From a virus (Duplodnaviria > Heunggongvirae > Uroviricota > Caudoviricetes), in IMG/VR virus record IMGVR_UViG_2778261448_000005: a DNA stretch of 36,585 bases. One strand, given 5' to 3'. Below the pieces are notes generated by a model, which did no database searches, was not told where the DNA came from, and worked only from the letters and a program-made list of their open reading frames with translations. Shown here in pieces: positions 10,293 to 35,321 of the stretch (within the stretch, counting starts at the first letter, position 1; the number at the start of each line of letters is the position of its first letter). The translations under genes were made by a program, and so were the position numbers.

Positions 10293-10790
10293 TTATTTGT
10301 TTTTCCGTAAAGGATTAGCTTTCCATCTTCTTACTAACCATTCGAATTCTTGATATGTAGTATCCGAATTAATGCTTTCTCTGATTGCTTTAATTAATGG
10401 CTCGGCAATATCATATGTCTCTACAACTGTTGTGTAAGATGTTCTTTTTATCATTTTTTCATCATAAATACCTTCACGAATACTTACAGCAACTCGCTCG
10501 TAAAAATTTAAAATATATTGAAATTTTCGACGCTCGGCCATTTCTTCATCTGTTATTATGCAACCATCACAAGGAAAAACATAAGAACGAAATGATTTGC
10601 CTGAACGATGCACTTGTTTCAGGGTATGCAATGACTCTATATATTGCATATCTTGCCGACTCTCAAAAAGAAAGTTGGCCGTTTGAGTTTTTTTTGCGGT
10701 ACGCACATTGTAGATAATGGTTCCAATGGCAACCAAAACGCCAAGCAGAACAATAGCATTGCTGATGATTTGTAGTGTTATTGGGTTCAT
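10293..10790 (-). CDS. single-pass membrane protein of unknown family with CDGC motif, AT-rich cargo
   Basis: 165 aa, N-terminal TM helix (ISNAIVLLGVLVAIGTIIY), then a soluble domain. First gene of a two-gene minus-strand operon with 9411-10253. Confidence 0.6.
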   Translation of the reverse strand: MNPITLQIISNAIVLLGVLVAIGTIIYNVRTAKKTQTANFLFESRQDMQYIESLHTLKQVHRSGKSFRSYVFPCDGCIITDEEMAERRKFQYILNFYERVAVSIREGIYDEKMIKRTSYTTVVETYDIAEPLIKAIRESINSDTTYQEFEWLVRRWKANPLRKNK

Positions 10791-14236: not shown

Positions 14237-14390
14237 TGCTCCCCCTGAGTAATTACAGGAAGATTACCCGCGCGCGAAACTGTTCTCCTTAACCCCCTGT
14301 TCTGGCCGTTTTCTTACAACAAAAGCCCTTTGTATCAGCCTGTTACGCTTTGCCATCATGACTGAAGAACCAGTCAGAGGGGCAAAAACT

Positions 14391-15227: not shown

Positions 15228-15250
15228 TAAGACAAAGGAGCAAATTTTTT

Positions 15251-16303
15251 ATGAATCTGGTGATGTCAGATATTACCCGCAACAAGCTGGGTTGCTATAT
15301 GGCGCAGCAGGCGTCGCTTAATAATATCCCGGTTTCTGCGCTGGTATCGCGATTTACCGTAGAACCCTCGGTGCAGCAGCGTTTTGAAAACGCCTCAAAG
15401 GAAAGCACCGAATTTACAAAAAGAATTAACGTGATCGGCGTAACCGACCAGAAAGGCGAAAAAATCCTCCCGGATACCACAGGACCGATTGCGCGCACGA
15501 ATACCAGTTATGACGGCACAAAACGCCGTAACCCGAATAACGTGGTTGATCTGAAAAACCGCAAATACCAGTGCGAACAGGTGAACTACGACACGTTTAT
15601 TTCATATCCGCAGCTTGATGCCTGGGCGGCACATCCTGATTTTCAGTCCCGCATCAGCGCACAGATTGCCCGACAGGTGGCGCTTGACCGCATCATGATC
15701 GGTTTCAACGGCACGTCTCACGCGGATGAGTCCAACTTCAGCACCAACAAGCTGCTTCAGGACGTTAACGTGGGCTGGCTGGAGCACATCAGAACCGACG
15801 CCAGCGAGCGCGTTATGAATGACGTGACGCTGACCTCCCGCAACATGGACAACACCGTGGCGCACGCGGGTAAGTATGCGAACGCTGATGCACTGGTACA
15901 GGACGCACGCTCATCCCTGCTGGATGAATGGCACAAGGAAGCTGACGACCTCGTGGTGATTATGGGGCGCAACCTGTTTAACTCGCTGCGTCTTCCCGTG
16001 CTGAACAGCATCAGCGGCCAGAATCCCAATGCGGAATTACTTGCCGGGCAGCTCATCCTGTCATCGCGCACCATTGGCGGGCTGGGCGTGTTCCTTGCGC
16101 CGTTCTTCCCGGATGCAACGATGCTGATCACCTCGTTCAACAACCTGTCGATTTACTGGCAGAAAGGTTCAATGCGTCGTCTGATGAAAGACGAACCGGA
16201 ATACAACCGCATCGCCACCTACCAGTCCATCAATGACGCTTATGTCGTTGAAGACTATGGCAAGTGCGCGATGGTCACTGGCCTGAAGTTCGCCGACAGC
16301 TAA
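15251..16303 (+). CDS. N: major capsid protein, P2 gpN family
   Basis: 350 aa (P2 gpN about 357 aa), AAGGAG RBS, directly after the scaffold gene. Confidence 0.9.
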   Translation: MNLVMSDITRNKLGCYMAQQASLNNIPVSALVSRFTVEPSVQQRFENASKESTEFTKRINVIGVTDQKGEKILPDTTGPIARTNTSYDGTKRRNPNNVVDLKNRKYQCEQVNYDTFISYPQLDAWAAHPDFQSRISAQIARQVALDRIMIGFNGTSHADESNFSTNKLLQDVNVGWLEHIRTDASERVMNDVTLTSRNMDNTVAHAGKYANADALVQDARSSLLDEWHKEADDLVVIMGRNLFNSLRLPVLNSISGQNPNAELLAGQLILSSRTIGGLGVFLAPFFPDATMLITSFNNLSIYWQKGSMRRLMKDEPEYNRIATYQSINDAYVVEDYGKCAMVTGLKFADS

Positions 16304-16348
16304 TCAACTCACGGCGGGCATCATGCCCGCCTGTAACGGAGAGAAAAA

Positions 16349-17149
16349 ATGATTACTCCTGCACAGCAACACTGGCAGAACGTGATGGCACAGCGCGCAG
16401 GCCGGGCGAATGAAGGCGTGGACCACGCCGCGCGTACCGCGCATGAAGAGGTGCTGTATCGTCTGCGTCTGGCACAGGCCCGGCTTAAGGGCGTACAGGC
16501 CAGAAGCGCGAAAGCCGCCATCAAAAAAGAGTTGTTGCCGGACTTTTCCGGCTGGATTGAGGGAACGCTGGAGGCTGACGGTGGGCAGCAGGATGAAGTG
16601 ATTGCCACGCTGATGGTGTGGGCGATTGACTGCGGCGATCTTCCGCTGGCGCTGCGTATTGGTGCATATGTGGTCCGTCACAACCTCATCATGCCGGATA
16701 ACTTTGGCCGTACTGCTGCCACAGTGCTGACCGAAGAAATCTGCAATCCGGTACTGACGCAGGCCGGGACGGATGCCGACGCGGATTTGTCCGCCTTTAT
16801 CGAACCTCTGGACACCCTCCGGGAGATTGTCACCGACCAGGACATGCCGGACGAAGTGCGCGCCAAATTATGCAAGGCGTGTGCCTTTGCCCGTCGTGGC
16901 CTGACCGATGCAGACAGCATGGCCCTGTCACTGAAGCTGCTGCGCGAAGCGATGCACCTGAACCCGAACGCAGGTGTGAAACGCGAGATTGCAACCCTTT
17001 CCCGCGCCCTGAAAAAAGCCGATTCCGCAGCCGCACCAGAAGACGCCAGCGCACAGCAGGCGCAGGACGAAAGCAGCAAAAGTAAAAAGACAACGCGGAA
17101 GCCTGCAACACGAAAAACCACCGCGACGCAGAAGGCGAAGCGCGGTTAA
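16349..17149 (+). CDS. M: terminase small (endonuclease) subunit, P2 gpM family
   Basis: 266 aa, GGAGAG RBS, position after N. Confidence 0.85.
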   Translation: MITPAQQHWQNVMAQRAGRANEGVDHAARTAHEEVLYRLRLAQARLKGVQARSAKAAIKKELLPDFSGWIEGTLEADGGQQDEVIATLMVWAIDCGDLPLALRIGAYVVRHNLIMPDNFGRTAATVLTEEICNPVLTQAGTDADADLSAFIEPLDTLREIVTDQDMPDEVRAKLCKACAFARRGLTDADSMALSLKLLREAMHLNPNAGVKREIATLSRALKKADSAAAPEDASAQQAQDESSKSKKTTRKPATRKTTATQKAKRG

Positions 17150-17251
17150 CGACTGACCCCGTCAGCGGGCGGCGTGCGCGGTGTTCCGGTTTGACTCCGT
17201 GACCGTTTACACCGCGCACCCACCGCCCGATTTTTTTCAGGAGTGAACCCC

Positions 17252-17746
17252 ATGAGTATGGTTGCCAGAAACAACCCCGGACCCGCAGAGGACGACATCA
17301 CCGATACCGATGATGGTGATACCCGTATTTCAGCGGGCGCATTCTGGCCGGATATTGTGCTGCGTGAGCTGCGTCTGGCGATACGACTGCCGGGCCGTGT
17401 GACCACCTCCCGCCTGCTGCATACCGCCACCGGGGCCGTGGCACACGTTACCCGCGAGCTGGAAGCGTGGCAGCAGGAACAGCAGGCGGCTGGCCATCAG
17501 ACGCTGGCCGATGTTCCGGCACCCGTAATTAACGGAGAAAGCGTCAATCTCTGGCACTGGCGCAATGCTGTTTATACCGCCACACGCGCCCTGATTCTGG
17601 AGCGTTACCGCGATGCGGACACAACGGACAAGGGCGACCGCCGGGCGGACGCACTGGATATACAGACATCGGATTTGTGGCGTGATGTGAGCTGGGCCAT
17701 CTCTGACATTCTGTGCCGCCCACGAATCTTTGCGGAGTTGTGCTGA
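17252..17746 (+). CDS. L: head completion protein, P2 gpL family
   Basis: ORF-track frame 17243-17746, start set to the ATG at 17252 after an AGGAGTG RBS. About 164 aa. Confidence 0.8.
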   Translation: MSMVARNNPGPAEDDITDTDDGDTRISAGAFWPDIVLRELRLAIRLPGRVTTSRLLHTATGAVAHVTRELEAWQQEQQAAGHQTLADVPAPVINGESVNLWHWRNAVYTATRALILERYRDADTTDKGDRRADALDIQTSDLWRDVSWAISDILCRPRIFAELC

Positions 17747-17946
17747 TGAAAGTAAAGGCACTGGAAGACGACACCGTGGATTCGCTCTGTTTCCGGTACT
17801 ACGGCACGACGCAGGGCGTCACCGAAAAGGTGCTGGATGCCAACCCCGGACTCTGTCAGCAGGTATTTCTGGACGCAGGGCAGGAAGTGGAGATGCCGGA
17901 GCCGGAGAAGAAGAAACGAGAAATGATTCAGTTGTGGGGGGAGTAG
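17746..17946 (+). CDS. X: tail protein X, P2 gpX family
   Basis: 66 aa from the ATG overlapping the L stop. MKVKALEDDTVDSLCFRYYG ... ANPGL parallels P2 gpX as I recall it. Confidence 0.8.
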   Translation: MKVKALEDDTVDSLCFRYYGTTQGVTEKVLDANPGLCQQVFLDAGQEVEMPEPEKKKREMIQLWGE

Positions 17947-18661: not shown

Positions 18662-19065
18662 AGCTCTGGCCCACGCTGGGCGTCGCTTTCCTTCTGATTG
18701 CCGCATGGGGAACATCCATGCGTCTGTCGTGGTCGCTGGGCCGGGAGAACGCCAGAAACGAAGCGCAGGCCAGCGCCCTGAAAAGTACCGCCGACACCCT
18801 GAATATCATCAGCACCGGGGTACAGGATATGCAGCAGGTGCTGGCGCAACTCCGCGTGGAAAATCAGCAACGCAATCAGGACGGAGAGGCCAGACGTGAA
18901 CAGCTACGCAACGATATTGCAAAAGATGAATGCGCCCACGCTTTGCCTGACGCTCGTTTTACTGACAGGTTGCGCAGGCACGCAGAACGCGCCACGGCCA
19001 GCGCCGTCAGTCCGGCTTATACCGCAGACGCTGACCATACCGGTAACGCCTCCCCCCTTCCCTGA
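18658..19065 (+). CDS. i-spanin, LysB/Rz-like
   Basis: N-terminal TM helix (MKLWPTLGVAFLLIAAWG) then a charged periplasmic domain. Start overlaps the endolysin stop. Confidence 0.65.
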   Translation: MKLWPTLGVAFLLIAAWGTSMRLSWSLGRENARNEAQASALKSTADTLNIISTGVQDMQQVLAQLRVENQQRNQDGEARREQLRNDIAKDECAHALPDARFTDRLRRHAERATASAVSPAYTADADHTGNASPLP

Positions 19066-22648: not shown

Positions 22649-24991
22649 ATGAGTACCACAACACGAAAATTTAAAACCGTTATCACCGATACGGGTGCAA
22701 AAAAATTAGCTCAGGCAGCCGCGCCAGATGGTAAGCCTGTCCGCCTGACTCATATGGCCGTGGGCGACGGTGGCGGCACGTTGCCCACACCAGACAGCAA
22801 GCAGACCCGTCTGGTGCATGAGGTGTGGCGACACACTGTTAATCGCGTCATCCTGGACGCAACACATCAGAACCGCATTATTGCGGAGCTGGTTATTCCT
22901 CCAGAAACGGGCGGATTCTGGATCCGGGAAATTGGTGTGTTTGATGAGCACGGCGATTTAATCGCGGTGGGCAATACTGCCGAAAGTTACAAGCCAGCCG
23001 TTGCCGAAGGGTCCGGTCGTGCACAAACATTTCGCACCATTCTGACCGTATCCAGCACTGCCACTGTGGCGCTTACCGTGGATAACACCATGGTGATGGC
23101 CACAGTGGATTACGTGGATAACAAACTGAAAGAGCATGAACAGTCACGACGTCACCCGGATGCCTCGCTGACCGCAAAAGGCTTTGTTCAACTCAGTAGC
23201 GCCACTAACAGCGATTCTGAAACGCTGGCTGCAACGCCGAAAGCGGTTAAGGTCGCGTATGATCTTGCTAACGGAAAATATACAGCGCAGGATGCCACAA
23301 CAGCGCGAAAAGGCCTTGTCCAGCTTAGTAGTGCAACCAACAGCACATCTGAAACGCTTGCCGCGACACCGAAGGCAGTTAAAGCAGCGAATGACAATGC
23401 GAATGGCAGGGTACCATCTAACCGAAAAGTTAACGGGAAAGCACTGACTGCGGATATAACATTAACACCGAAAGATATTGGCACTTTAAATTCAGTAACG
23501 ATCTCTTTCTCTGGCGGGGCAGGGTGGTTCAAACTGGCAACGGTTACCATGCCACAAGCGAGTTCCATCGTTTACATCGCATTGATTGGTGGCACTGGTT
23601 ACAACGTCGGCTCCCCACAGCAGGCAGGCATTTCAGAACTGGTTCTACGAGCAGGCAATGGAAACCCCAAAGGGATTACCGGAGCTTTGTGGAAGCGTAC
23701 AGCCGTCGGATTAACGAATTTCGCCTGGATCAACACATCCGGCGATACATATGATATTTACGTTGAGATTGGCAATTATGCGACGAGTGTAAATATCCAT
23801 TGGGATTGTACTACAAATGCGTCAGTTTCTATTTATACCTCGCCAACATATTCAGCGAGTAAGCCTTCCAGCGTTACCGGTGGTGTTGTTTATACGATGT
23901 ATAGCTCACATCAGAAACCTACACCATCAGATATTGGAGCGCTGCCAACGACTGGAGGGACTATTTCAGGTCCGTTGTCTGTTACTGATGGGATCACCGG
24001 GGCACTGAAGGGGAACGCCGATACCGCGACGAAACTTGCGGCAGCCCCAAAAATTAACGGTGTTAAGTTTGATGGCTCGGCGGATATTAACCTCACGCCG
24101 GAAAATATTGGTGCATTTGCCCGACGTTCGACGGGGGCTTATGCGGATTCGAATGGAGCCGTTCCCTGGAATGCCGAATCAGGCGCTTATAATGTCACCC
24201 GCTCTGGCGACAGCTATATTCTGGTTAACTTCTATACCGGAGTCGGAAGTTGCCGGACCTTGCAGATGAAGGCGCATTACAGAAATGGTGGTCTGTTCTA
24301 CCGTTCTTCAAGAGACGGTTATGGTTTTGAGGAAGACTGGGCAGAAGTTTATACCTCGAAAAATCTTCCACCAGAAAGCTACCCAGTCGGCGCACCAATC
24401 CCGTGGCCATCAGATACCGTTCCGTCTGGTTATGCCCTGATGCAGGGGCAGACTTTTGACAAATCTGCATACCCGAAACTTGCAGTCGCTTATCCGTCAG
24501 GCGTGATCCCTGATATGCGTGGCTGGACTATCAAGGGCAAACCTGCCAGTGGTCGTGCCGTATTGTCTCAGGAACAGGACGGCATTAAATCGCACACCCA
24601 CAGCGCCAGCGCATCCAGTACTGATTTGGGGACGAAAACCACATCGTCGTTTGATTACGGTACTAAAACGACCAGTTCATTTGATTACGGCACAAAAACC
24701 ACAAATAGCGCAGGAGCTCATTCACACAATATACCTGTTGGTCACACTGGCGCGGGGAATGGTGTATCAGCCGGTTATAACGCTGCGTTAGGTACTGGTA
24801 CCACGTCGAGCGCAGGAGGGCATGCTCACAATGTATATATCGGTGCCCATAACCACACTATCGGCATTGGTGCTCATGCCCATTCTGTCATTATTGGTCC
24901 CCACGGACACACCATCACCGTTAATGCTACGGGGAACGCAGAAAACACCGTAAAAAACATCGCATTTAACTATATTGTGAGGCTTGCATAA
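22649..24991 (+). CDS. H: tail fibre protein H
   Basis: 780 aa. Conserved P2-H-like N-terminus, internal tail-fibre repeats ([18 protein letters not shown] twice), His-rich GxHxH C-terminal repeats. Confidence 0.85.
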
Positions 24992-25569
24992 TGACATTCA
25001 GAATGAGTGAACAATCACGGACCATAAAAATTTATAATCTACTGACCGGAACCAATGAGTTTATTGGTGAAGGTGATGCATACATTCCACCTCATACAGG
25101 TCTGCCTGCAAACAGTACCGATATTGCCCCGCCAGATATTCCGGCTGGCTTCGTGGCCGTTTTCAACAGTGATGAGGCATCGTGGCATCTCGTTGAAGAC
25201 CATCGGGGTAAAACGGTTTATGACGTGGCATCAGGGGACTCGTTATTTATTTCTGAACTCGGTCCATTACCGGAAAATGTTACCTGGTTGTCGCCGTATG
25301 GAGAGTATCAGAAGTGGAACGGCACATCCTGGGTGAAAGATGCAGAAGCAGAAAAACTGTTCCGGATCCGGGAGGCGGAAGAAACAAAAAACAGCCTGAT
25401 GCAGGTAGCCAGCGAGCATATTGCGCCACTTCAGGATGCCGTAGATTTGGATATTGCAACGGAGGAAGAGGGATCGTTACTGGCTGCATGGAAGACATAC
25501 CGGGTATTGTTGAATCGTGTTAATACAGCGGTAGCAGCGGATATTGAGTGGCCAGTCGCCCCACAATAA
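24991..25569 (+). CDS. G: tail fibre assembly chaperone G
   Basis: 192 aa, start overlaps the H stop. Position and size match gpG. Confidence 0.7.
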
Positions 25570-25575
25570 AGAGAA

Positions 25576-25605
25576 AAAGCCATCGATTGAAATATAGATG
25601 GCTTT
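25576..25605. terminator. hairpin between convergent G and the acetyltransferase
   Basis: AAAGCCATC-loop-GATGGCTTT stem-loop, 9-bp stem. Confidence 0.45.
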
Positions 25606-25612
25606 ATGTACT

Positions 25613-26218
25613 CTATTTATACAATACAACACCGCTCTTTTTAGTTATATATGTGCAGTTCGATGGTATATCTTTATTTATAAAAGACATTGCACCTATT
25701 TTTACATTATCCCCAATTTTACGTGATAATCCAATGATGCAACAATTAGCTCCGATATCAACGTTACTACCAATTTTTACTCTTGAACCAGGCATGTCAC
25801 CATCTATCTGTCCAATGGTAGTATTCTGTCGTAACACCAGATTTTCACCAGCATCAACAGCAAAATGAACAACAATTCCAGCATGATGGGGAATTGTTAA
25901 CCCTTTTCCAATATTTGCTCCCAATCCTATTTCACAACCAAATTTGTTAATTATTTTACTGTTTAACTTCTTGGCTGCTTTCTTATGTAATTTATTACCA
26001 TTAATATACATTTCGTTAGCCAACCGCCACCAGAAAAGGAAATTCCTGTTACGCTGCTTTTTCTCTCTTAAAAGCCTCCAGATATCCATACGTTTCCGCC
26101 GAATTACTTCATGTTTCCAGAAGTTTTTTAAATTAGTAGAGTTCCCAAATAAAACAAAGTGAATTGCCATTAGGTAAGACAGCACGATAATCTCCTTAAT
26201 TATTATTTCAGACCACAC
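25613..26218 (-). CDS. hexapeptide-repeat (left-handed beta-helix) acetyltransferase, AT-rich cargo; start uncertain (26218 or 26170)
   Basis: Hexapeptide repeats visible (VKIGSNVDIGAN, IGDNVKIGAMSFI, IGANCCIIG). Low GC. Sits at the Z/fun position between G and the tail genes. Confidence 0.7.
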   Translation of the reverse strand: MWSEIIIKEIIVLSYLMAIHFVLFGNSTNLKNFWKHEVIRRKRMDIWRLLREKKQRNRNFLFWWRLANEMYINGNKLHKKAAKKLNSKIINKFGCEIGLGANIGKGLTIPHHAGIVVHFAVDAGENLVLRQNTTIGQIDGDMPGSRVKIGSNVDIGANCCIIGLSRKIGDNVKIGAMSFINKDIPSNCTYITKKSGVVLYK

Positions 26219-26341
26219 ATGTTATAAGGTTAAGAGATTATAAAATCCTGTTGTTTGTTATTCAAAAACAATTTTCTGAGAAGGACATACAACAGCAAGT
26301 CGCCAGTCACCTTCATCAGGAAATTGGCGACATACGTTAAA

Positions 26342-26836
26342 TCAGAGCAGCCCCTTAACTGAGCTGGCCGCGCTATTAAGGGATGATGTCACCTTATCTT
26401 TGAAGCCGGACAACATATCGCTGAACGATGAGGATTGCAGGCGCTCCCGCAAATCCTCATCACAGCGTTCAAGAGTCAGTGAAAATTCTATCTTTTTCGC
26501 CTTACCGTAGCGATCAAACTCGGAACGGGTCGTATTCGTTCCGGTCAGGACATACATGCCGTAAATCTGCCCGACGCCATCAATCAAAGGCCAAGGTCGT
26601 CCTGTATACGCCTGCGTGGTCAGCAGCGACAGCGACACTTCGCCACCTGTAATTTCAGGATAAAGCACACCAGAAAGAACGATGCGATCATCACCTGCAC
26701 CGATATACTGCCAGCTTGCTGAACGGTTAACGCGTTCATTTTTCACATGCCGCCAGCTTTTGTTTTGCTGTAACTGCTGATGCGGCAGCGTGCGCAGCTC
26801 AAAAACAAACATGCCATAGATCATCATCATGGCCAT
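26342..26836 (-). CDS. U: tail protein U, P2 gpU family
   Basis: 164 aa (P2 gpU about 159 aa). Characteristic MMM..FVF.LRT N-terminus. Downstream of the tape measure. Confidence 0.85.
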   Translation of the reverse strand: MAMMMIYGMFVFELRTLPHQQLQQNKSWRHVKNERVNRSASWQYIGAGDDRIVLSGVLYPEITGGEVSLSLLTTQAYTGRPWPLIDGVGQIYGMYVLTGTNTTRSEFDRYGKAKKIEFSLTLERCDEDLRERLQSSSFSDMLSGFKDKVTSSLNSAASSVKGLL

Positions 26837-26842
26837 GACTCC

Positions 26843-29659
26843 TCAATCTTTATCGTAAAAACTGCCACGCCCGGCACGGGCGCGCCGTTCCATTTCTGCC
26901 CTGACCATTTCACCGACCAGTTTCGCCAGTTCGCGGGGATTCTGCGTAACAACGTTATGCAGATGAACATGAATTTCACCACCAAATCCGGAGACAACAG
27001 GCTCCCGGTTACGGGAAGTTGCAGGAACTGATGCCACTGGCGATCGTATGGCCTCCGCCACCGGACGGGAGCTGGCCGCAACAACAGGGACCAGCGCCGG
27101 AGGCAGAGGAGCCGGGACTACGGGTGTGATGTTGATTGCGGAAGCAGGCTTACTGGCCTGCGCAATCTTCCGCTCCTGCCACTCCCCACGAACGGCAAGT
27201 GCGCGGGGCAGATTCTTAAAGACAATATCACCGGGGCCAATGCGTTTTTTCGTCTCATCAACCAGCTTACCTGTGTTATCAGCAATTTTGCTGAGTCTGC
27301 GTAGCGTACCGGTATTGCTGTCTGTGAGTGGTTTGTCGTCTTTGGGTTTATCACCTCCGGTGCCATTGCCATTTTCCACAGGCTTCGGCGGATTGATTTT
27401 CGCCAGGTCCCCCTGAAGCAAGGCAACCTTGTCCTGAAGAATGGCCGCACGCTGTGCGTCTTCAATTTTCTTGCGCGCCCTTTCCGCTTCATCCGGAAGG
27501 ACGCCAAGTTTTTCAAGTATCCACGCCAGCGTATCCAGTAGCATTTTTGCAGGTGTCAGAACAAGCTGTAACGCACCGCCAAGAACGTTACCGAATATCT
27601 CGCCAGCACTGGTACATTTATCCAGCGTTTCCTTACTGGACTCCATCGGTGACAGCAGCGATTTAAACCAGTTAAACACCTAGCTGATCCCGCTTCCGAT
27701 TGCGTCAAAAAAAGGGCCAAACCGTTCAAAGGTTTCGCGTAACGGAGCCAGCCGTTCCATAATCCCACTGAACACCCCTGCATAAAACGCCTTGATGGGT
27801 TCCCAGTATTTCCAGATGAGAACCGCCGCAGCCACAAACGTAGCAGCAATCAATCCGACCGGACTGAACAGCGCCCCGATAGCGCCTCCCAGTAACGAAA
27901 TGGAACCCGTCACCATTCCCCATAATGCAGGCAGAACCCTGACAACATTCAATGATCCGGTCAGGAGGGAAAAACCAAGACGCAGTTTTGCCAGTGGGCC
28001 AGCAAGCACACCAATAGCCAGCGACAACGAGCCTATGGTTGCAGTCATTGCCAGCAGAGCACCGCCTGCAACCAGTAGCTGGCGCGTCAGTGCCGGATGG
28101 GCCTGCGCCAGCGCCGTCACCTTCGATACCACCCGCGTGAGCCACTGCGTGACAGAACGCAGCGGACCGTCAATCAGATCTGCAATGCGGATGCGCAACC
28201 CTTCCCATGCACTGCCGAGTGATTTCAGATCGCCGTCAAGGTTGTTGGCCATAACCTTTGCTGTGCGTTCAGCCTCACCGCGCGCGCCTTCAAGTTCTTT
28301 TCTCAGTTTGGGTAAGGAGCCGTCACCTGCCGCATCAACGAGGGCCATAAATGATGTGAAAGCCTCTTCTCCGGCAATGTCCTTAAAGAACGATACCCGG
28401 TCAACTTCCCCGTATTTGCGGGTAGCTTTATAAAGGTCAGCCAGCACATCCTCCATCGGGCGCATTTTGCCGTTCGCGTCAGAAACAGCCACACCAAGCT
28501 CCTTCAGCGCCTCTGCTGCCGCCTTTGGCGGTGATGCCAGACGAGCCAGGCTGGCACGCATTGCCGTCCCGGCATCACTCCCTCTGATACCCATATTCGC
28601 CAACACGCCAGCCATCGCTGCGGCCTGCTCCAGCGATATTCCCAGCTTACCCGCCACCGGACCTGCATATTTCATGGTTTCGCCCAGTGCGCGAAGGTCA
28701 GTGTTGGTACGGGTAAATGCTGCGGTGAGCGTGTCGCCAACCCGGTCCATCTGGTCAGCAGAAAGGCCGAACTGCGTCAGGATATTTGAGCCAATATCCG
28801 CCGTCTCGCCGAGATCCATGCCGCCAGCCGTTGCCATGCTCAGCACGCCCGGAAGTGCAGCCTGAATGGCCTGCGGAGTGAAGCCAGCCATTGCAAGAAA
28901 TGCCTGCCCACTGGCGGCATCGCCTGCGGTGAACTGCGTTTCAGAGCCAAGTTTTAACGCCTGCTCACGCAGTGCCTTAAACTGCGGGCTGTTTTTGTCG
29001 ATTCGCGTCAGTGCCTGAACGCGGGACATCTCTTTGCCGAACCCGATCGCAGGCTGCAAAAAACGCCCGGCAGCATAGCCGCCCGCCGCTGCCGCACCAA
29101 TTGCCAGCGCACCACCTGTTTTCAGTTTTCCCGCTGTTTCCTGCGCGCGCGAATACCGCTCACGCGCCCGCGTTACACGCGCAAGCGCCTGCCGTTCGCG
29201 TTCAAGCTGGTTGTTGTACTGTTCGGTGCGTCTGATGGCCTGCTGGATGGTGTTATCGCTGCCTGTCAGGGAAATGCCGTGGCGTTTCAGCTCTCCGCCA
29301 AGCTCCCGCATTTTCTGAATTTCCCGTGTGCGCGATTCATTCAGGCGTTCAAGCCGGGTGCTTAACTGCTGCATCAGCTTTTGTTGTTTTTCGCTGAGCA
29401 CTGTACCCGTGCGTTGTAACTGATTAAGGGCGTTAAGCTGGCGTCGTGCTTTCACGATGCCAGCATCCGCTTTACTGACAGCGTCACGGGCGCGCTCAAA
29501 TGAACGCGCCTGACGCTCGAGATTTTTGATCGCCCCCTGCGTTCGCTGGATGGAGTCACCAAACTGCCCCATCAGGCGGCGGGCGTTTTCGGCAGGCCGG
29601 GTCAGCCTGTCAACGGCGCTGAAAGCGACCCGGATATCAAGAGTCTTCATTATCTGCAT
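26843..29659 (-). pseudogene. T: tail tape measure protein gpT, interrupted by a single in-frame TAG at 27680-27682
   Basis: ORFs 27680-29659 (659 aa) and 26843-27679 (278 aa) are contiguous and in the same frame across one amber codon, about 938 codons combined. Ala/Gly-rich coiled-coil-like composition typical of tape measures. Confidence 0.7.
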
Positions 29660-29903
29660 TCCCGCTGCGAAGTGCCGCCCGCTCGCGCCAGCTAACCACT
29701 TCGCCGGGCGTCATCATGAAGATTTCGGCGGGCGACCAGTTAAAAATGGCGGCAATATCCGCCACCAGATCTTCGATGTGCTCAAAGCACACCAGGGTGA
29801 TTACGCTGCCGTCTCCTGCACGCTCTTCGCGCCAGAGTCTGGCTCGCTCATAAAATTTACAGCCACAGCGCACAACTGAATAAAATCGCGTGACGACATT
29901 TTT
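29637..29903 (-). CDS. E-prime extension, minus-one frame product of the tail chaperone (E+E-prime fusion by programmed frameshift)
   Basis: The -1 frame is open from the A7 run at 29899-29905 (minus strand) to a stop at 29637 and overlaps the T start, as in P2 E/E+E-prime and lambda G/GT. Confidence 0.45.
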   Translation of the reverse strand, partial: KNVVTRFYSVVRCGCKFYERARLWREERAGDGSVITLVCFEHIEDLVADIAAIFNWSPAEIFMMTPGEVVSWRERAALRSGNADNEDS

Positions 29904-30175
29904 TTAATCATCACTTCATCCAGTCGTGGCGAGGTCACGCGAGGCAACAGCGTAAACATGGTATCCGCTTTCAGATTCAGCACATCAGACAGCGACAGAC
30001 CACGCAGGGATCCAGCCTGCTCAATAGCCCCGGTGATCTCCACATACGTGATTTTTTCGCCACCACGCTCAATTGGTCGGGTCAGTTTTACGCCACGTTC
30101 GACAGCCATATCCTCACCTGCCGTCACATCATCCGCCACGGTGTTATTCCGGGTTTCAGTATCGATGTCTTTCAT
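29801..30175 (-). CDS. E: tail assembly chaperone E, P2 gpE family
   Basis: Small ORF between the tube and tape measure genes, AAGGAGA RBS. An alternative internal start at 30109 also has an RBS. Confidence 0.7.
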   Translation of the reverse strand: MKDIDTETRNNTVADDVTAGEDMAVERGVKLTRPIERGGEKITYVEITGAIEQAGSLRGLSLSDVLNLKADTMFTLLPRVTSPRLDEVMIKKMSSRDFIQLCAVAVNFMSEPDSGAKSVQETAA

Positions 30176-30230
30176 CAGTTGTCTCCTTTTCAGTCAGAGG
30201 CGACGCACTGCGCCGCCTGCATATTACTTA

Positions 30231-30743
30231 TCAGCCAAGCCCAAGCGCGGAACGGATACGGTCAGGCACAATGTCCTTGCCGTCCTTCCGGTAGATGTGG
30301 TTCAACAGGTCGATTTCCCACAGCGGGCGATCGTTAACGCTCAGCTTGTAGTAGGTGTTTTTGACAGCGTAAGTGTGTGATGTGGCTTCGCCCTGTTTGG
30401 CTTCCCCCATATCAATTTCCGTCACACGCCCGCGCATCTCGATTTCATACAGATCGCTTTCTGCATCGGTGTAGTATTCACCCGCAAAACGCAGCAGCGT
30501 GCCGTCAATCGTGCCGCCATATTTAAGGAACAGCGCACGAACAGCTCCCCCCATGACAAAACTCGCATCAAGCGCGGAGTCGTCCAGACCGAGATCAATA
30601 CTTACCGCCCCCATCATGCCACCACCACGATAGCTGTCGGTTTTGCGCGTCAGTTTGGGCGGCGTGACGGATGTCACTTTACCCACTTCGTTTTCACCAT
30701 CCACAAACAACGTAAAAAAGCGAAGATGTTTTGGTACAGCCAT
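30231..30743 (-). CDS. FII: tail tube protein FII
   Basis: 170 aa (P2 FII about 172 aa), directly downstream of the sheath gene with a 1-nt overlap. Confidence 0.85.
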   Translation of the reverse strand: MAVPKHLRFFTLFVDGENEVGKVTSVTPPKLTRKTDSYRGGGMMGAVSIDLGLDDSALDASFVMGGAVRALFLKYGGTIDGTLLRFAGEYYTDAESDLYEIEMRGRVTEIDMGEAKQGEATSHTYAVKNTYYKLSVNDRPLWEIDLLNHIYRKDGKDIVPDRIRSALGLG

Positions 30744-31927
30744 CAGGCACCTCCCAGCACCGCAAATGCGGGACCAAAGAATTCATCAGTAAACGTCTGG
30801 TACAGCTCCATGTCTTCCAGCGGGGGAACAGGCGTATATTTGTAGCGAATACGCACACGTCCCTGACGTAAATTCGTGGTGCCGTTATCCACCACGTCAT
30901 ACCAGCACTCCGCACCAATCAGTTTCCCGGCAGTAACCAGCGAATCCAGTTTTGCCCTGATGGCGCTGATAACATCCTTCACGTTCGCAGGTGTCAGTGG
31001 ACTGTCGATGGTTTCAAACTGCGCTTCCGCAATTGAATCAGCCAGCACCTGTGCGGTTCGGGTATACACCTCAAAGATGTAGGCGTTCGTTTCCGGTGTG
31101 CGGTTGCCCCAGAAGCGGAACCCGTTGCGACGAATAATGGTCGTGATTTCTTTGTTGTTGAGGCTGTTGGCATCGCTGTCTTCGGCCTGCAACGACCAGA
31201 ACACATGCCTGGACATTCCCAGCACATTTTTAACCGGAACGTTGGACAGCGATTTGTGCCAGCCCTGCTCATGGTCAATGTACGCACGAAGGCCGCACGC
31301 ATAGGCAGGCGCGGGGAACGTTTCGTTTTTGCCACTTTTCGGGTTGTAGGCGATGAAGTCCGGCCATAAGAGCATCACCTCACGTTCGTTGAATTTCTGG
31401 CGGTAGGTAATCGCCTCAGCCATCGTGTTACAGCCGTGACATGAGGCATACACAAACGCGCGCAGTTTACCTGCAATCACGCACAGGGATTTTGTTACAG
31501 CCTCCGTGTCCAGCTCCGGCGCGGCCAGAATACGCGGACGGTATCCGATGCTTTCATCCTGCTCTGCAACAAGCAGCGCATACATCCCCGTATAGCTGCC
31601 GTCATCCTCAGAACCACCGATAACCAGTTGATCCTGCGTCTTTCCGTCTTCTTCTTTGTGTTCAGCCACGCGAACGACGATCACCTTTGTGCTCACCTGG
31701 TCTGCGATGGCCTTAAGCGCACGATAAAGCGTCCCCGTTGTCCCGCATTTTCCCAGCACGTCATTGACGCGGGTCAGCAGTGTGGGCTTATTCAGCGGGA
31801 ACAGCTTCGCGTCCGCATCATCCGCCGTTGCCACGATACCGATAACGCTGGAATCAACATCGTTAATCGCTGTTACCAGGTCGGTATTTTCCGTAACACG
31901 GGCACCATGAAAACGAGTTTCACTCAT
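30743..31927 (-). CDS. FI: contractile tail sheath protein FI
   Basis: 394 aa (P2 FI about 396 aa). N-terminal region parallels P2 FI (LNKP ... GTL ... AIADQ). Confidence 0.9.
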   Translation of the reverse strand: MSETRFHGARVTENTDLVTAINDVDSSVIGIVATADDADAKLFPLNKPTLLTRVNDVLGKCGTTGTLYRALKAIADQVSTKVIVVRVAEHKEEDGKTQDQLVIGGSEDDGSYTGMYALLVAEQDESIGYRPRILAAPELDTEAVTKSLCVIAGKLRAFVYASCHGCNTMAEAITYRQKFNEREVMLLWPDFIAYNPKSGKNETFPAPAYACGLRAYIDHEQGWHKSLSNVPVKNVLGMSRHVFWSLQAEDSDANSLNNKEITTIIRRNGFRFWGNRTPETNAYIFEVYTRTAQVLADSIAEAQFETIDSPLTPANVKDVISAIRAKLDSLVTAGKLIGAECWYDVVDNGTTNLRQGRVRIRYKYTPVPPLEDMELYQTFTDEFFGPAFAVLGGA

Positions 31928-32084
31928 AGCTTCAGCCCCTTGTATCCGTTAAATGATTCGGCAACAATCATCACCCACCACGCGCGTAATCTCACCCCTG
32001 CGCCGTTCTCCCGACCCGGCGACAACAAAAAGCAGTAACCCCCTCCGCACGCACATGCGACCATGCCGCACAGGGAGGGAACAG

Positions 32085-33194
32085 ATGACCGACACCACCA
32101 TGCAATTGCTCAGTCAGGGCACAGACCCCGTGAAAATGCCGGATTTTGATATTCTCGCGGAGGGTAAAACGCTGTCAGGCGTGGCAGAGCGCCTGATGAG
32201 CCTGTCACTGACCGACAACCGGGGATTTGAGGCGGACCAGCTCACCATCACGCTGGATGATGCGGATGGTCAGTTGCAGCTACCGCCACGGGGCGCGCGC
32301 CTGACGGTTCTCATTGGCTGGAAAGGAGAACCGCTGACAGAAAAAGGCACTTACATTGTTGATGAAATCGCTCACGAAGGACCGCCGGACAGGCTGACTG
32401 TTTCAGCCAGAAGCGCAGATTTTCGGGATGAATTTAACGTTAAACGTGAGGTGTCCTGGCATGATGTGACCGTTGAGCGTGTGGTATCCGCCATCGCTCA
32501 TCGGTATGGTCTGAAACCACAAATCAGCGAAATGCTGATGGATATCGAAATCGACCACGCCGACCAGACCGAAGAAAGCGACATGTCCTTCCTTACGCGC
32601 ATGGCGGAAATGCTGGGCGCAATCACCACGGTAAAAAGCGGCAATCTGTTATTCATCATGCCAGGTGGTGGCGTGAACGCACAGGGCCAGCCGTTGCCCT
32701 CGTTCGCCATTACACGCAGCAGCGGCGATCGCCATCAGTTCCGTATTGCTGACCGCGAGGCGTATACGGGGGTACGCGCCTACTGGCTTGATCTTAATTA
32801 CGGGGAAAAGAAAAAAGTCAGCGTGAAACGCCGCAAACCACCAAAACCCCAAAAGGAGAAAAGCAGCAGCCGTGAAGGTGATTATATGGAAGGCGCGGAA
32901 GGCAATGTGTTTGTGTTACGCAAGACCTATCAGAACGAACAGGCAGCAAGACGCGCAGCGGCGGCAAAGTGGCAGCAACTACAACGCGGAGCCGCATCAT
33001 TCTCCATCACGCTGGCGCGTGGACGTGCAGAACTCTACCCCGAAATGCATGGTACGGTAACAGGATTTAAAAGCGAGATTGATAATCAGGACTGGATCAT
33101 TGCAAAAGCCGAGCACACTATTGATAACAGCGGCTTTACCACGCAGCTTGAGCTTGAGGCAAAAATCCCGGAATGGATAGCGGAAACAGAGTGA
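32085..33194 (+). CDS. D: tail protein D (late control D family); start uncertain
   Basis: ORF-track frame 31953-33194, likely start at the internal Met (MTDTTMQ) near 32085. About 369 aa versus P2 gpD 387 aa. Directly upstream of ogr. Confidence 0.8.
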   Translation: MTDTTMQLLSQGTDPVKMPDFDILAEGKTLSGVAERLMSLSLTDNRGFEADQLTITLDDADGQLQLPPRGARLTVLIGWKGEPLTEKGTYIVDEIAHEGPPDRLTVSARSADFRDEFNVKREVSWHDVTVERVVSAIAHRYGLKPQISEMLMDIEIDHADQTEESDMSFLTRMAEMLGAITTVKSGNLLFIMPGGGVNAQGQPLPSFAITRSSGDRHQFRIADREAYTGVRAYWLDLNYGEKKKVSVKRRKPPKPQKEKSSSREGDYMEGAEGNVFVLRKTYQNEQAARRAAAAKWQQLQRGAASFSITLARGRAELYPEMHGTVTGFKSEIDNQDWIIAKAEHTIDNSGFTTQLELEAKIPEWIAETE

Positions 33195-33236
33195 GCAACT
33201 TAGAATAGCGGCAGCACCACGTTAAGGGAGGTCGCT

Positions 33237-33497
33237 ATGTTCCGTTGTCCGCTTTGTGGCGCATCTGCCCGTATCCGCACCAGTCGTCCGGAAAATGATT
33301 CAAACACCGTGCGGCAAAAGTATTACCAGTGTAACAATCTGGAATGCGGCGTATGCTTCTCAACACTGGAAGCCTTCCATAAATTCACATCAAAACACGC
33401 CTCCGGCGTTCACTCTTCAGAAGGTATCCCGTGGCATGAGCTGCCAGCTTCACACAGGGGAAACAATCAGATGAGTTTGCCTTTACCTCAGAATTAA
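33237..33497 (+). CDS. ogr: Ogr/Delta-family zinc-finger late-gene activator
   Basis: MFRCPLCG ... YYQCNNLECG Cys4 arrangement as in P2 Ogr, in the P2 ogr position after D. Confidence 0.75.
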   Translation: MFRCPLCGASARIRTSRPENDSNTVRQKYYQCNNLECGVCFSTLEAFHKFTSKHASGVHSSEGIPWHELPASHRGNNQMSLPLPQN

Positions 33498-33687
33498 CAG
33501 GCAGAATTGCCGGAGTAACAAAAAAGCGATAGATTACGCGCGGGTGCCTTTCGGCTGATGGTCGGAGGGAATACCCGATGGCCGGATGTGGAAAGGCCCC
33601 GGAAAACACTTTTGTTTAACCGAGGCCCTAACCGTCTACCCTAAGCAAGTGATAGGTTAGCGCCTCCCCGAAAAAGGAGCAAGCGCT

Positions 33688-33828
33688 ATGTCGCAAAAAT
33701 CGCTTACGGCCATCACGTTCTGCGTGACGGTAATCCTCATCATCTGGATGCTGCACGGTTCGCTGTGTGAAATACGGATGAGCTTCTGGGGAGCGGAGTT
33801 TGCGGCGTTCTTACAGTGTAAGCAGTAA
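33688..33828 (+). CDS. Hok/Gef-family type I toxin, 46 aa
   Basis: Not in the ORF track (under 60 aa). Translation MSQKSLTAITFCVTVILIIWMLHGSLCEIRMSFWGAEFAAFLQCKQ: N-terminal TM helix plus the conserved SLCEIR and AAF blocks. AAGGAG RBS upstream. Confidence 0.55.
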   Translation: MSQKSLTAITFCVTVILIIWMLHGSLCEIRMSFWGAEFAAFLQCKQ

Positions 33829-33837
33829 GGAAACCGC

Positions 33838-33859
33838 GACGGGGGAGTAATCCCCCGTC
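33838..33859 (+). terminator. stable GC-rich hairpin at the 3-prime end of the hok-like gene
   Basis: GACGGGGG-loop-CCCCCGTC, 9-bp stem. No clear U-run, so a terminator role is uncertain. Confidence 0.35.
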
Positions 33860-34090
33860 AATCGGTTGCCAGGGTAAGGTCGATAAGGCACCCTATCTCA
33901 CAGCTCTAAATGCCAAAATTCCATGAAACTGTGGGATTTTTGCATCACATACTGATACAGACCAGCCCTTCTATATGCCTCACTCTATACCAGCTAATCA
34001 ATTGACACTTATCAATAAAAATAAATCTGATAAAATCAAAATGTTTTGTAACAAATATCAACTCGTATTAATCCAAAGGAGGCGGATTAC

Positions 34091-34423
34091 ATGGCATTAA
34101 TCAAATGTCCTGAATGCCAGAAAGAGGTGAGCGATTCAGCATTGTATTGCCCTGCTTGTGGTAAACAACTGCAAAAACTTAAGCGTTCATTTTTTGGACG
34201 GATCATTAAGTGGGTTTTTATATTATTTAATATTTTTATGATCTATACGCTTTTAGTTGGACTAGGAGGCACTAGTGAAATAATAAATAATGCCACATCC
34301 GATGCCGAAAAAGCCGGTGCAGTTATTGGTACAGGCTTAGGTTTAATTACCATTGGAAGCTTATGGGTTATTGGCGATATCATTATCGGAATTTTAGTAT
34401 TTCTTACTAAACCAAAGGGATAA
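34091..34423 (+). CDS. zinc-ribbon membrane protein, AT-rich cargo
   Basis: N-terminal CPECQ ... CPACG zinc ribbon followed by two hydrophobic helices. GGAGG RBS. Low GC. Confidence 0.5.
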   Translation: MALIKCPECQKEVSDSALYCPACGKQLQKLKRSFFGRIIKWVFILFNIFMIYTLLVGLGGTSEIINNATSDAEKAGAVIGTGLGLITIGSLWVIGDIIIGILVFLTKPKG

Positions 34424-34427
34424 TAAA

Positions 34428-35321
34428 ATGAAAAATATAATTTTTTCTATAGGTGCATCATTTATATCAATTAGTGTACTGCCTGTTCAAGCAGCAACTG
34501 AACATAAGAACTTCAATGCAGTACTCCAGTGCCGAGCAATAGAAAATAATAAAGACAGACTTTCTTGTTACGATAAGTCAATACAACCGACTCGAACGAA
34601 AGTTGCTGAAAAATTCGAAAGCAGAGATCAATGCCCTGATGAGAAAGATGATGATAGACGTTTATCTTGTTATGATCGTTTCTTTTCTCCAACATTTACT
34701 CCATCTGTAAACTCAAAATCTAAAACGGAAAAGCCAGTAACAACAGAGGCTCAGCAACCAAATCTTTCTGAGATATCTAAATGTCGTGCAGAAAATGATA
34801 AAGAAGCCAGACTAAACTGCTACGATAAACTATTCCCACAGGATAAAATCGCTCAAGCTGAATCAAAATTAGAGAAAGCCACAGATGTAGGAAAATGGCA
34901 CACATCCATTACTACATCGCCAATTGATGATTCGAAAAATGTAATTTTATCGTTAGAAAGTGATGATTATATCAGAACTCCATTTGGAGAAGCGGTTACT
35001 CCTACTCTTTTTATAGCTTGCCGAGAAAAGAAAACCGAAGTATTTCTTAGTTGGGATGTATATTTAGGCCTTGAACAAACCAGCATGCTTTATCGCCTTG
35101 ATAAACAGAAAGCAGTTGAGCGAAACTGGCTAGTATCTACAGATACAAAGGCTGTTTTTTATAAAGGTAATGACATTGATTTCATCCGAAAACTAGCCAA
35201 CTCAAGCAAAATGTATACAAAAATAACGCCTTATAATGAGAGCCCCGTAAGTGCAACTTTCAATTTAAACGGCCTGTCAAACGCGCTAAAACCGCTTCAA
35301 GCTGCTTGTAACTGGAAATAG
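34428..35321 (+). CDS. secreted protein with three Cys-x(n)-RLSCYD repeats, AT-rich cargo
   Basis: Signal peptide (MKNIIFSIGASFISISVLPVQA). Three repeats (CRAIENNKDRLSCYDK, CPDEKDDDRRLSCYDR, CRAENDKEARLNCYDK), then a roughly 150-aa C-terminal domain. Low GC. Confidence 0.5.
   Translation: MKNIIFSIGASFISISVLPVQAATEHKNFNAVLQCRAIENNKDRLSCYDKSIQPTRTKVAEKFESRDQCPDEKDDDRRLSCYDRFFSPTFTPSVNSKSKTEKPVTTEAQQPNLSEISKCRAENDKEARLNCYDKLFPQDKIAQAESKLEKATDVGKWHTSITTSPIDDSKNVILSLESDDYIRTPFGEAVTPTLFIACREKKTEVFLSWDVYLGLEQTSMLYRLDKQKAVERNWLVSTDTKAVFYKGNDIDFIRKLANSSKMYTKITPYNESPVSATFNLNGLSNALKPLQAACNWK

What the first reader, a model, noticed from the sequence alone, without database searches (positions are those of the whole stretch)
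25570..32084. Tail sheath-tube-chaperone-tape measure-U block is inverted relative to canonical P2 order
In P2 as I recall it, V-W-J-I-H-G, the Z/fun locus, FI-FII-E-T-U-D and ogr are all transcribed in the same direction. Here V through G and D-ogr are on the plus strand, but FI, FII, E, T and U (with the acetyltransferase downstream of U) are on the minus strand. D is therefore uncoupled from the F operon, and FI and D diverge from one 157-bp intergenic region (31928-32084). This is either a natural variant organisation, a roughly 6-kb inversion in this lineage, or a misassembly. Taken with the amber codon in T, it may indicate a decaying prophage.
Basis: partly seen in the sequence, partly recalled or inferred. 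Interest (0 to 1): 0.55.

Follow-up and report, generated by a model that had tools for sequence, protein, structure and literature searches.

The report
Normal tail-gene order of P88-like prophages
The "inverted" tail sheath-to-U gene block is real, but it is the standard, inherited layout of a very common family of working P2-like phages (P88 and relatives), so it is neither a misassembly nor a sign of decay.

Summary
U, T, E/E', FII and FI lie on the minus strand (26342-31927). V to G, D and ogr lie on the plus strand. FI and D diverge from a 157-bp spacer.

The arrangement is ordinary. The window is a Xuanwuvirus (P88-like) prophage between pdxB and flk. P88, P88_4B11, Citrobacter PhiSM, Senquatrovirus SEN5 and a Reginaelenavirus Klebsiella phage all share this order. 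So do all 48 prophage loci with D at least 61% identical, from more than 20 enterobacterial genera. The FI-D junction is intact in 1358 of 5426 complete E. coli genomes.

P2, phiCTX, PHL101, Burkholderia Mana, a Vhmlvirus and all 32 loci with D 53% identical or less are collinear. Inverted loci are monophyletic in D, FI, FII and U trees. This points to one ancient inversion that carried the F promoter with it.

The FI-D spacer holds one conserved Ogr-type dyad (GTTCT-N12-ACAAC, 32005-32026). I infer that it drives both FI and D, as the single site in P2 does for P and O.

The amber in T (CAG to TAG, base 27682) is a private point mutation in an otherwise intact prophage. Interest is low.

The parts
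25576..25605 (.). Symmetric hairpin between the tfa stop and the acetyltransferase stop. It is a likely bidirectional terminator closing the V-H-G operon.
   Evidence: 9-bp stem, dG -14.3/-14.4 kcal/mol, z -4.7/-4.8 on both strands, with A-run and U-run flanks.
25613..26185 (-). Hexapeptide serine acetyltransferase. This is a cargo gene of a laterally acquired tail-fibre module, not part of the F operon.
   Evidence: Weak Pfam Hexapep match. PGAP names it serine acetyltransferase. Window 24140-26177 is 94-95% identical to vB_EcoM-Ro157c2YLVW and JL22, and the stf/tfa part (to about 25557) is 88-93% identical to lambdoid phages. It has its own promoter-like site at 26265-26237.
26290..26339 (-). 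Stem-loop just downstream of U. It is the likely terminator of the F operon.
   Evidence: dG -22.3 kcal/mol, z -3.8. Similarity to P88-type phages begins at 26336.
26342..26830 (-). gpU tail protein.
   Evidence: Pfam Phage_P2_GpU, E 1.5e-38. 46% identical to P2 U.
26843..29650 (-). gpT tape measure protein, 935 codons. Codon 657 (27680-27682) is an amber stop, TAG in place of CAG.
   Evidence: Pfam PhageMin_Tail. The single G-to-A change at 27682 is seen against CRE1540, P88, P88_4B11 and strain 154. No complete E. coli genome carries the allele.
29637..29792 (-). E' extension (GpE family). It overlaps the start of T, as in P2.
   Evidence: PGAP annotation of the near-identical relative. The same gene is annotated in P88.
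29801..30175 (-). gpE tail assembly chaperone.
   Evidence: Pfam Phage_TAC_7 weak match. 35% identical to P2 E.
30231..30743 (-). gpFII tail tube protein.
   Evidence: Pfam Phage_tube, E 2e-45. 42% identical to P2 FII.
30743..31927 (-). gpFI tail sheath protein.
   Evidence: Pfam sheath domains. 45% identical to P2 FI.
31928..32084 (.). Divergent FI/D spacer. Inferred to be a bidirectional late promoter region.
   Evidence: The spacer is 140-198 bp (median about 153 bp) in 50 distinct relatives, with conserved blocks on both sides of a central dyad. The junction is intact in 1358 E. coli genomes.
32005..32026 (.). Ogr-type activator dyad GTTCT-N12-ACAAC (TGT-N12-ACA class, one mismatch).
   Evidence: It is one of only two exact matches in the window. 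The dyad centre lies 88 nt from the FI ATG and 69 nt from the D ATG. Across the clade the median distances are 82 and 70.5 nt. The P2 pF site lies 82 nt from the FI ATG.
32085..33194 (+). gpD baseplate hub protein ('late control D'). The ORF is intact.
   Evidence: Pfam Phage_GPD. 99% identical to P88 D and 52% to P2 D.
33237..33497 (+). Ogr/Delta zinc-finger late activator.
   Evidence: Pfam Ogr_Delta, E 5e-14.
14299..14320 (.). The second exact dyad (GTTCT-N12-ACAAC), in the P/O divergent spacer. It serves as an internal comparison for the FI/D site.
   Evidence: The P2 record annotates one activator site serving the divergent pP and pO promoters.

Best explanation
The window is a P88-like (genus Xuanwuvirus) P2-family prophage integrated between pdxB and flk. 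Its tail-gene order is the normal, inherited order of a large clade of enterobacterial P2-like phages.

In the ancestor of that clade, the segment from the F promoter through U (pF-FI-FII-E/E'-T-U) inverted once relative to the ancestral collinear order, which P2, 186-type phages, phiCTX and others retain. The inversion took the F promoter and its Ogr-binding dyad along with FI. It left D and ogr behind, immediately on the other side of that dyad.

I infer that this one dyad now activates two divergent late promoters. One drives FI through U leftward and the other drives D (and by read-through ogr) rightward. This would work as the single activator site between P and O does in P2.

The V-H-G operon and the F operon now converge on a variable cargo slot. 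Here that slot holds a laterally acquired tail-fibre tip/tfa/acetyltransferase module. In P88 it holds an invertible fibre cassette with a Gin-type invertase.

The amber codon in T is an unrelated, recent, private point mutation. It would probably block tail assembly in a non-suppressing host.
For: Shown directly:
- Window 26336-34000 is 93-97% identical to Xuanwuvirus phages, and 1-25000 is 96-97% identical over 74-83% of its length.
- P88 and P88_4B11 are annotated U-T-E'-E-FII-FI on one strand and D-ogr on the other. SEN5 (Senquatrovirus) and Kp4871-3 (Reginaelenavirus) have the same order.
- In 80 loci from one-genome-per-species bacteria, all 48 with D at least 61% identical are inverted and all 32 with D 53% or less are collinear.
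- Outgroups phiCTX, PHL101, Mana and a Vhmlvirus are collinear.
- Inverted loci are monophyletic in NJ trees of D, FI, FII and U.
- Identity of the block to P2 (33-46%) matches that of most other structural genes, e.g. Q, P, N and V at 42-47% (range 25-73% overall).
- The FI-D junction is intact in 1358 of the 1380 E. coli genomes with any match. 1352 genomes hold at least 80% of 25000-33600 in one collinear place.
- P88 and PhiSM are functional phages (PMC5285337, PMC6456863).

For the promoter inference:
- The exact dyad occurs only in the P/O and FI/D spacers.
- Its position is conserved in 50 distinct spacers.
- Its distance to the FI ATG matches that of pF in the collinear clade.
- P2 has one annotated activator site with start sites 55-56 nt to either side.
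- Similar GC-rich and -10-like blocks lie 43-50 nt from the dyad centre on the P, F and D arms.

For the amber.
Against: - No transcription data exist for this clade, so the D promoter and its dependence on Ogr are inferred from sequence only.
- The dyad here has TCT rather than TGT in one half-site, and the -10-like hexamers are weak.
- A single origin rests on NJ trees and on a survey capped at the best 80 loci. Independent inversions elsewhere in Peduoviridae were not searched for exhaustively.
- No breakpoint scars or repeats survive, so the mechanism of the original inversion is unknown.
- The review most likely to describe this layout (Casjens and Grose 2016, PMC4969182) could not be read.
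Confidence: 0.9

Rival explanations
1. A recent inversion of about 6 kb specific to this strain or a narrow lineage.
For: The order differs from P2.
Against: The same order occurs in three ICTV genera and in 48 of 48 related loci from more than 20 genera. The junction is present in a quarter of complete E. coli genomes.
Confidence: 0.01
2. An assembly error that flipped a contig segment.
For: None beyond the unexpected order.
Against: Seven independent complete genomes differ at only 2 positions (27682 and 30803) across both junctions of 25000-33600. Phage genomes sequenced from virion DNA show the same junctions.
Confidence: 0.01
3. The sheath-to-U block is a foreign contractile-tail module swapped in from another phage or tailocin in the opposite orientation, rather than an in-place inversion.
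For: Phage genomes are mosaic, and the neighbouring fibre module is clearly foreign.
Against: Block proteins are as diverged from P2 as most other structural genes. FI, FII and U trees define the same clade as the non-inverted D. The pF dyad keeps the P2 distance to the FI start codon.
Confidence: 0.04
4. A programmed, reversible inversion by a phage serine invertase, like the G or C segments of Mu and P1.
For: P88-type phages carry a Gin-type invertase next to U.
Against: No flanking inverted repeats longer than chance were found. The window has no invertase. Only one orientation was seen in 53 of 53 clade loci, and no flipped copy was seen among the E. coli genomes listed. In P88 the invertase sits beside its own inverted tail-fibre cassette.
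Confidence: 0.01
5. The prophage is decaying, and the rearrangement and the T amber are both symptoms of that.
For: T carries a premature stop, which would probably prevent tail assembly.
Against: Against CRE1540 there are 139 substitutions and one intergenic indel in 36.6 kb, and only the amber breaks an ORF. All P2-type structural and regulatory genes are present. The amber is private to this sequence.
Confidence: 0.05

Closest known systems
Escherichia phage P88 and other Xuanwuvirus members (P88_4B11, PhiR44_2, Chuche, Citrobacter PhiSM)
   Same: The gene order is identical, including U-T-E'-E-FII-FI opposite D-ogr. Shared regions are 93-97% identical at nucleotide level. PhiSM uses the same pdxB-side integration site.
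   Different: The window lacks the Gin-type invertase and the inverted tail-fibre cassette between G and U. In their place it has a tail-fibre tip/tfa/acetyltransferase module. It also carries an amber codon in T.
Phage P2 (Peduovirus)
   Same: It has the same set of structural, lysogeny and late-control genes, an Ogr-type activator, and TGT-N12-ACA-class dyads upstream of late operons.
   Different: In P2, FI through U is collinear with D and ogr, so D is the last gene of the F operon. Most shared proteins are only 25-61% identical (the conserved N-terminal third of H reaches 73%).
P2 pP/pO divergent late promoter pair
   Same: One dyad sits in a short spacer between two divergently transcribed late units. 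In P2 the start sites lie 55-56 nt to either side of the site centre. The window's FI/D spacer has the same geometry.
   Different: In P2 this arrangement is demonstrated only for P/O. For FI/D in the P88 clade it is inferred from sequence.
Senquatrovirus SEN4/SEN5 and Reginaelenavirus (Klebsiella phage Kp4871-3)
   Same: Both have the same inverted block and divergent FI/D spacer, with a dyad at the same position.
   Different: Tail proteins are only about 28-70% identical to the window (most 44-70%; T 28% in SEN5). These are different genera with different hosts.

Membership tests
Peduoviridae (P2-like phages) | P2-type set of head, tail and baseplate genes (Q P O N M L X R S V W J I H G FI FII E T U D) | tested here: met
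   tblastn with P2 proteins finds all of them, at 25-73% identity. Pfam agrees for the tail genes.
Peduoviridae (P2-like phages) | Ogr/Delta zinc-finger late activator, plus P2-type int, C, cox and A | tested here: met
   Ogr_Delta E 5e-14. int is 49%, C 37%, cox 54% and A 32% identical to P2.
Genus Xuanwuvirus (P88-like) | About 70% or more nucleotide similarity over the genome to genus members (ICTV genus criterion, from general knowledge) | tested here: met
   Coverage times identity is about 81% (PhiR44_2) and about 71% (P88) for 1-25000. It is about 72-75% for 24000-34000. This is a rough estimate, not a formal VIRIDIC-type calculation.
Genus Xuanwuvirus (P88-like) | Gene order U-T-E'-E-FII-FI on one strand, with D-ogr divergent | tested here: met
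   Annotations of NC_026014 and NC_049391 match the window.
Programmed invertible DNA segment (Gin/Cin/Hin type) | Inverted-repeat crossover sites flanking the segment | tested here: not met
   No repeat pair brackets 26342-31927. The best pairs are 13-27 nt, 73-93% complementary, and scattered.
Programmed invertible DNA segment (Gin/Cin/Hin type) | Both orientations found among close relatives | tested here: not met
   53 of 53 clade loci are in one orientation. The junction is intact in 1358 of 1380 E. coli genomes with a match.
P2-type Ogr-dependent late promoter | Dyad of the TGT-N12-ACA class upstream of the late gene, about 55 nt from the start site | tested here: inconclusive
   A dyad with one mismatch lies at 32005-32026, at a conserved position. 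Start sites are unknown.
P2-type Ogr-dependent late promoter | Transcription that depends on Ogr and the RNA polymerase alpha subunit | not testable with these tools
   This needs reporter or RNA experiments.
Defective or decaying prophage | Multiple disrupted or deleted essential genes | tested here: not met
   There is a single nonsense codon in T. Everything else is collinear and open compared with CRE1540 and P88.

The most novel reading that the evidence does not exclude
The ancient inversion converted the one-way F promoter into a second P/O-style bidirectional late promoter. A single Ogr dyad (32005-32026) would then switch on both the sheath-to-U operon and a short D-ogr unit. I found no mention of this arrangement in the papers on P88, PhiSM or SEN4/5 that I could read.
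Probability: 0.6. Interest if true: 0.3.

Novelty: already known. Interest (0 to 1): 0.12.

Why it matters
Mostly as a calibration point. P2 is not a reliable template for gene order across all P2-like prophages. About a quarter of complete E. coli genomes carry the P88-type layout, so it should not be flagged as a rearrangement, a misassembly or decay.

Two minor points of real interest follow from this work:
- The inversion is a clean shared derived character that unites Xuanwuvirus, Senquatrovirus and Reginaelenavirus.
- It suggests how a symmetric activator site lets an operon inversion be tolerated. The gene left behind (D) can be driven from the other face of the same site.

The T amber predicts that this particular copy cannot make tails unless the stop codon is suppressed.

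Tried and rejected
- An exact TGT-N12-ACA search found nothing in the late spacers, and allowing one mismatch was uninformative (161 hits against 165 expected). The longer GTTGT-N12-ACAAC dyad was needed.
- The inverted-repeat search across both junctions gave only chance-level pairs.
- The sigma-70 promoter scan was at background level (8 found against 8.8 expected).
- I compared U C-termini and D N-termini between clades, looking for breakpoint signatures. Both ends vary in both clades, so this said nothing.
- Literature: the P88, PhiSM and SEN4/5 papers do not mention orientation or inversion. The Xenorhabdus tailocin paper places the variable region next to the sheath gene, which is the collinear type. 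Casjens and Grose 2016 is not held. Other keyword searches found nothing relevant.
- A possible third dyad at 18729-18750 and a V-operon promoter were not resolved.
Full report
**1. What is in the window**

The six-frame ORF list, Pfam and tblastn with P2 proteins show a complete P2-family prophage.
- int is at 1-1020 (minus strand), and C and cox follow.
- The replication gene A is at about 5105-7972.
- Q and P are on the minus strand (11439-14236).
- O, N, M, L, X, lysis genes, R, S, V, W, J, I, H and a tail-fibre assembly gene are on the plus strand up to 25569.
- Next, on the minus strand, come an acetyltransferase (25613-26185), U (26342-26830), T (26843-29650), E' (29637-29792), E (29801-30175), FII (30231-30743) and FI (30743-31927).
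- D (32085-33194) and ogr (33237-33497) are on the plus strand.

The P2 reference record confirms that FI, FII, E, T, U, D and ogr are collinear there.

Two details need correcting. P2 fun(Z) is on the opposite strand. The acetyltransferase is not part of the F block (section 5).

**2. The arrangement is the norm for this kind of phage**

Window 26336-34000 is 93-97% identical to Xuanwuvirus phages: P88, P88_4B11, PhiR44_2, Chuche, 500465-2 and Citrobacter Shae_phiSM. The first 25 kb is 96-97% identical to the same phages over 74-83% of its length.

The RefSeq annotations of P88 and P88_4B11 show U, T, E', E, FII and FI on one strand and D (and ogr) on the other. Salmonella phage SEN5 (Senquatrovirus) is annotated the same way. 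tblastn shows the same order in Klebsiella phage Kp4871-3 (Reginaelenavirus).

P88 was induced with mitomycin C. It forms plaques, has a contractile tail in electron micrographs and a burst size of about 65 (PMC5285337). PhiSM is released spontaneously, forms plaques and lysogenises K-12 at pdxB (PMC6456863). So the layout belongs to working phages.

In complete E. coli genomes, 1352 of 5426 hold at least 80% of 25000-33600 in one collinear place. An 801-bp probe across the FI/D junction is intact in 1358 of the 1380 genomes that match at all. Seven unrelated strains differ from the window at only 2 positions across both junctions. Misassembly and a strain-specific inversion are excluded.

**3. 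How deep the arrangement goes and which state is ancestral**

I used a D-protein profile to collect 80 loci from a one-genome-per-species bacterial collection. I then placed V, W, J, I, FI, FII, E, T, U, D and ogr in each by tblastn. The split is clean.
- All 48 loci whose D is at least 61% identical to the window's D have u- t- e- fii- fi- d+ ogr+.
- These come from Salmonella, Edwardsiella, Serratia, Erwinia, Pantoea, Enterobacter, Klebsiella, Kosakonia, Citrobacter, Xenorhabdus, Photorhabdus, Providencia, Morganella, Yersinia, Hafnia, Pectobacterium, Brenneria, Symbiopectobacterium and others.
- All 32 loci with D at 53% identity or less are collinear.

Outgroups are all collinear: phiCTX (Citexvirus), PHL101 (Baylorvirus), Burkholderia Mana (Aptresvirus) and Vibrio phage MAR, which lies outside Peduoviridae.

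In neighbour-joining trees of D, FI, FII and U rooted on MAR, the 50-53 inverted loci form one clade with no collinear member inside it.

The block's proteins are as far from P2 (FI 45%, FII 42%, E 35%, T 33%, U 46%) as most other structural proteins are (Q 47%, P 44%, N 42%, V 46%, D 50%). That argues against a foreign module.

The simplest reading is one inversion of the FI-to-U segment in the common ancestor of Xuanwuvirus, Senquatrovirus, Reginaelenavirus and many unnamed prophages.

**4. How late transcription probably works after the inversion (inferred)**

P2 late promoters are activated by Ogr at dyads of the TGT-N12-ACA class. The P2 record annotates a single activator site (3057-3087) for the divergent pP and pO promoters. 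Their start sites at 3016 and 3127 lie 55-56 nt either side of the site centre.

In the window, the extended dyad GTTCT-N12-ACAAC has exactly two perfect matches. One is in the P/O spacer (14299-14320) and one is in the FI/D spacer (32005-32026). From my own arithmetic assuming equal base frequencies, about 0.14 perfect matches would be expected by chance in the whole window.

An alignment of 47 distinct FI/D spacers shows the dyad as the central conserved element. Many members have a perfect GTTGT-N12-ACAAC, and there are further conserved blocks on both sides.
- In 50 distinct spacers the dyad centre lies 78-88 nt (median 82) from the FI ATG in all but two Xenorhabdus loci, where the scorer picked another site.
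- It lies a median of 70.5 nt from the D ATG.
- In the collinear clade the pF dyad lies a median of 80.5 nt from the FI ATG, and in P2 itself 82 nt.

So pF travelled with FI. One breakpoint was just upstream of the pF activator site, and the other was at the tight U/D junction.

D now has no upstream gene on its strand, so its promoter must lie in the spacer (140-198 bp, median about 153 bp, in the 50 relatives). The D arm carries a GC-rich block followed by a TG-n-GACCAT element (AAATCAT or AACTAT in relatives) 43-48 nt from the dyad centre. This resembles the P and F arms of the same genome.

I therefore propose that one dyad serves both FI and D, with predicted start sites near 31960 (minus strand) and 32071 (plus strand). 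This is sequence inference only. I put it at about 0.6.

**5. The left junction and the acetyltransferase**

Similarity to P88-type phages ends in H at about 23395 and resumes at 26336, just past the U stop. In between, 24140-26177 is 94-95% identical to the tail-fibre tip, tfa and serine acetyltransferase of vB_EcoM-Ro157c2YLVW and JL22, and the stf/tfa part (to about 25557) is 88-93% identical to many lambdoid phages. In P88 the same slot holds a second, inverted fibre/tfa pair and a Gin-type invertase.

The acetyltransferase has its own sigma-70-like promoter (26265-26237, 10 of 12 matches). It is bracketed by a symmetric hairpin at 25576-25605 and a stem-loop at 26290-26339 downstream of U. 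This is a cargo slot where the V-G and F operons now converge. It corresponds to the Z/fun slot of P2.

No inverted repeats bracket the block. Only one orientation is seen in the clade, so a programmed invertase switch is not supported.

**6. The amber in T and the question of decay**

T codon 657 is TAG in the window and CAG in CRE1540, P88, P88_4B11 and strain 154. This is a single G-to-A change at plus-strand base 27682. An 81-bp probe centred on it finds at best 80 of 81 matches in 5426 complete E. coli genomes, so the allele is private.

Against the CRE1540 prophage, the whole window shows 139 substitutions, most of them between 12761 and 17886 in the P-to-X head-gene region. It also shows one 1-nt indel in the M/L intergenic region. 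Nothing else breaks an ORF.

This is one recent nonsense mutation, or a sequencing error, in an otherwise intact prophage. It is unrelated to the gene order. It would probably abolish tail assembly in a non-suppressing host. A supE suppressor would restore the original glutamine (general knowledge).

**7. Comparison with what is known, and verdict**

The element is a member of Peduoviridae and, by rough coverage-times-identity, of the genus Xuanwuvirus. Its gene order is visible in public reference genomes and published maps. The three papers I could read do not comment on it, however, and the most relevant review was not available.

What is modestly new here is the demonstration that the inversion defines a clade spanning three genera, and the inference of a second bidirectional Ogr-dependent promoter.

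Scores: interest 0.12; novelty: already known.

Noticed in passing
window 23396-26177: The distal part of tail fibre H, the tfa gene and a convergent serine acetyltransferase form a mosaic module. It is 94-95% identical to vB_EcoM-Ro157c2YLVW and JL22, and its stf/tfa part is 88-93% identical to lambdoid phages. It replaces the invertible fibre cassette and Gin-type invertase found at this position in P88.
   Followed up: partly
window 8049-9327: A ParM/StbA actin-like segregation protein and a Plasmid_stab_B (ParR-like) protein are encoded inside an integrating P2-like prophage. They are also annotated in P88. This hints at a plasmid-like maintenance or partition function.
   Followed up: no
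window 9411-10790: A low-GC island (32-39% GC) lies between the replication region and Q, at the position of the P2 old/tin cargo slot. It holds a DUF4760 protein and a 280-aa protein with no family match. It may be anti-phage cargo.
   Followed up: no
window 33688-35321: Low-GC cargo lies next to the right prophage end. It comprises a Hok/Gef-family toxin gene (33688-33828), a zinc-ribbon protein (34091-34423) and a VasI/TagO-like protein (34428-35321). Host flk follows at 35590. In the near-identical CRE1540 prophage, pdxB lies just beyond int, outside the left end of the window.
   Followed up: partly
window 12761-17886: About 115 of the 139 substitutions against the otherwise near-identical CRE1540 prophage cluster in the P-to-X head-gene region. 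This indicates a recombination patch from another Xuanwuvirus.
   Followed up: no
window 18729-18750 (minus strand): The sequence GTTCTCCCGGCCCAGCGACCAC closely resembles the FI/D dyad, including its spacer. It lies inside the lysis-gene region, upstream of R, S and V. It could be a third late activator site or a chance match.
   Followed up: partly
window 32085-33194 (L004 10342-11195): PGAP annotates D in strain CRE1540 as a shortened 801-nt gene plus a small pseudogene fragment. The 369-codon ORF is nevertheless intact and 99% identical to P88 D. This is an annotation artefact and not a real truncation.
   Followed up: partly
L007 (NZ_JBQPOM010000071.1, Vagococcus sp. WN89Y): A Firmicute draft assembly contains a 226-kb contig with a P88-type prophage whose D is 98% identical to the window. 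This is probably enterobacterial contamination of that assembly.
   Followed up: no
L003 15675-17261 (P2 record): P2 fun(Z) is annotated on the strand opposite to the V and F operons.
   Followed up: yes
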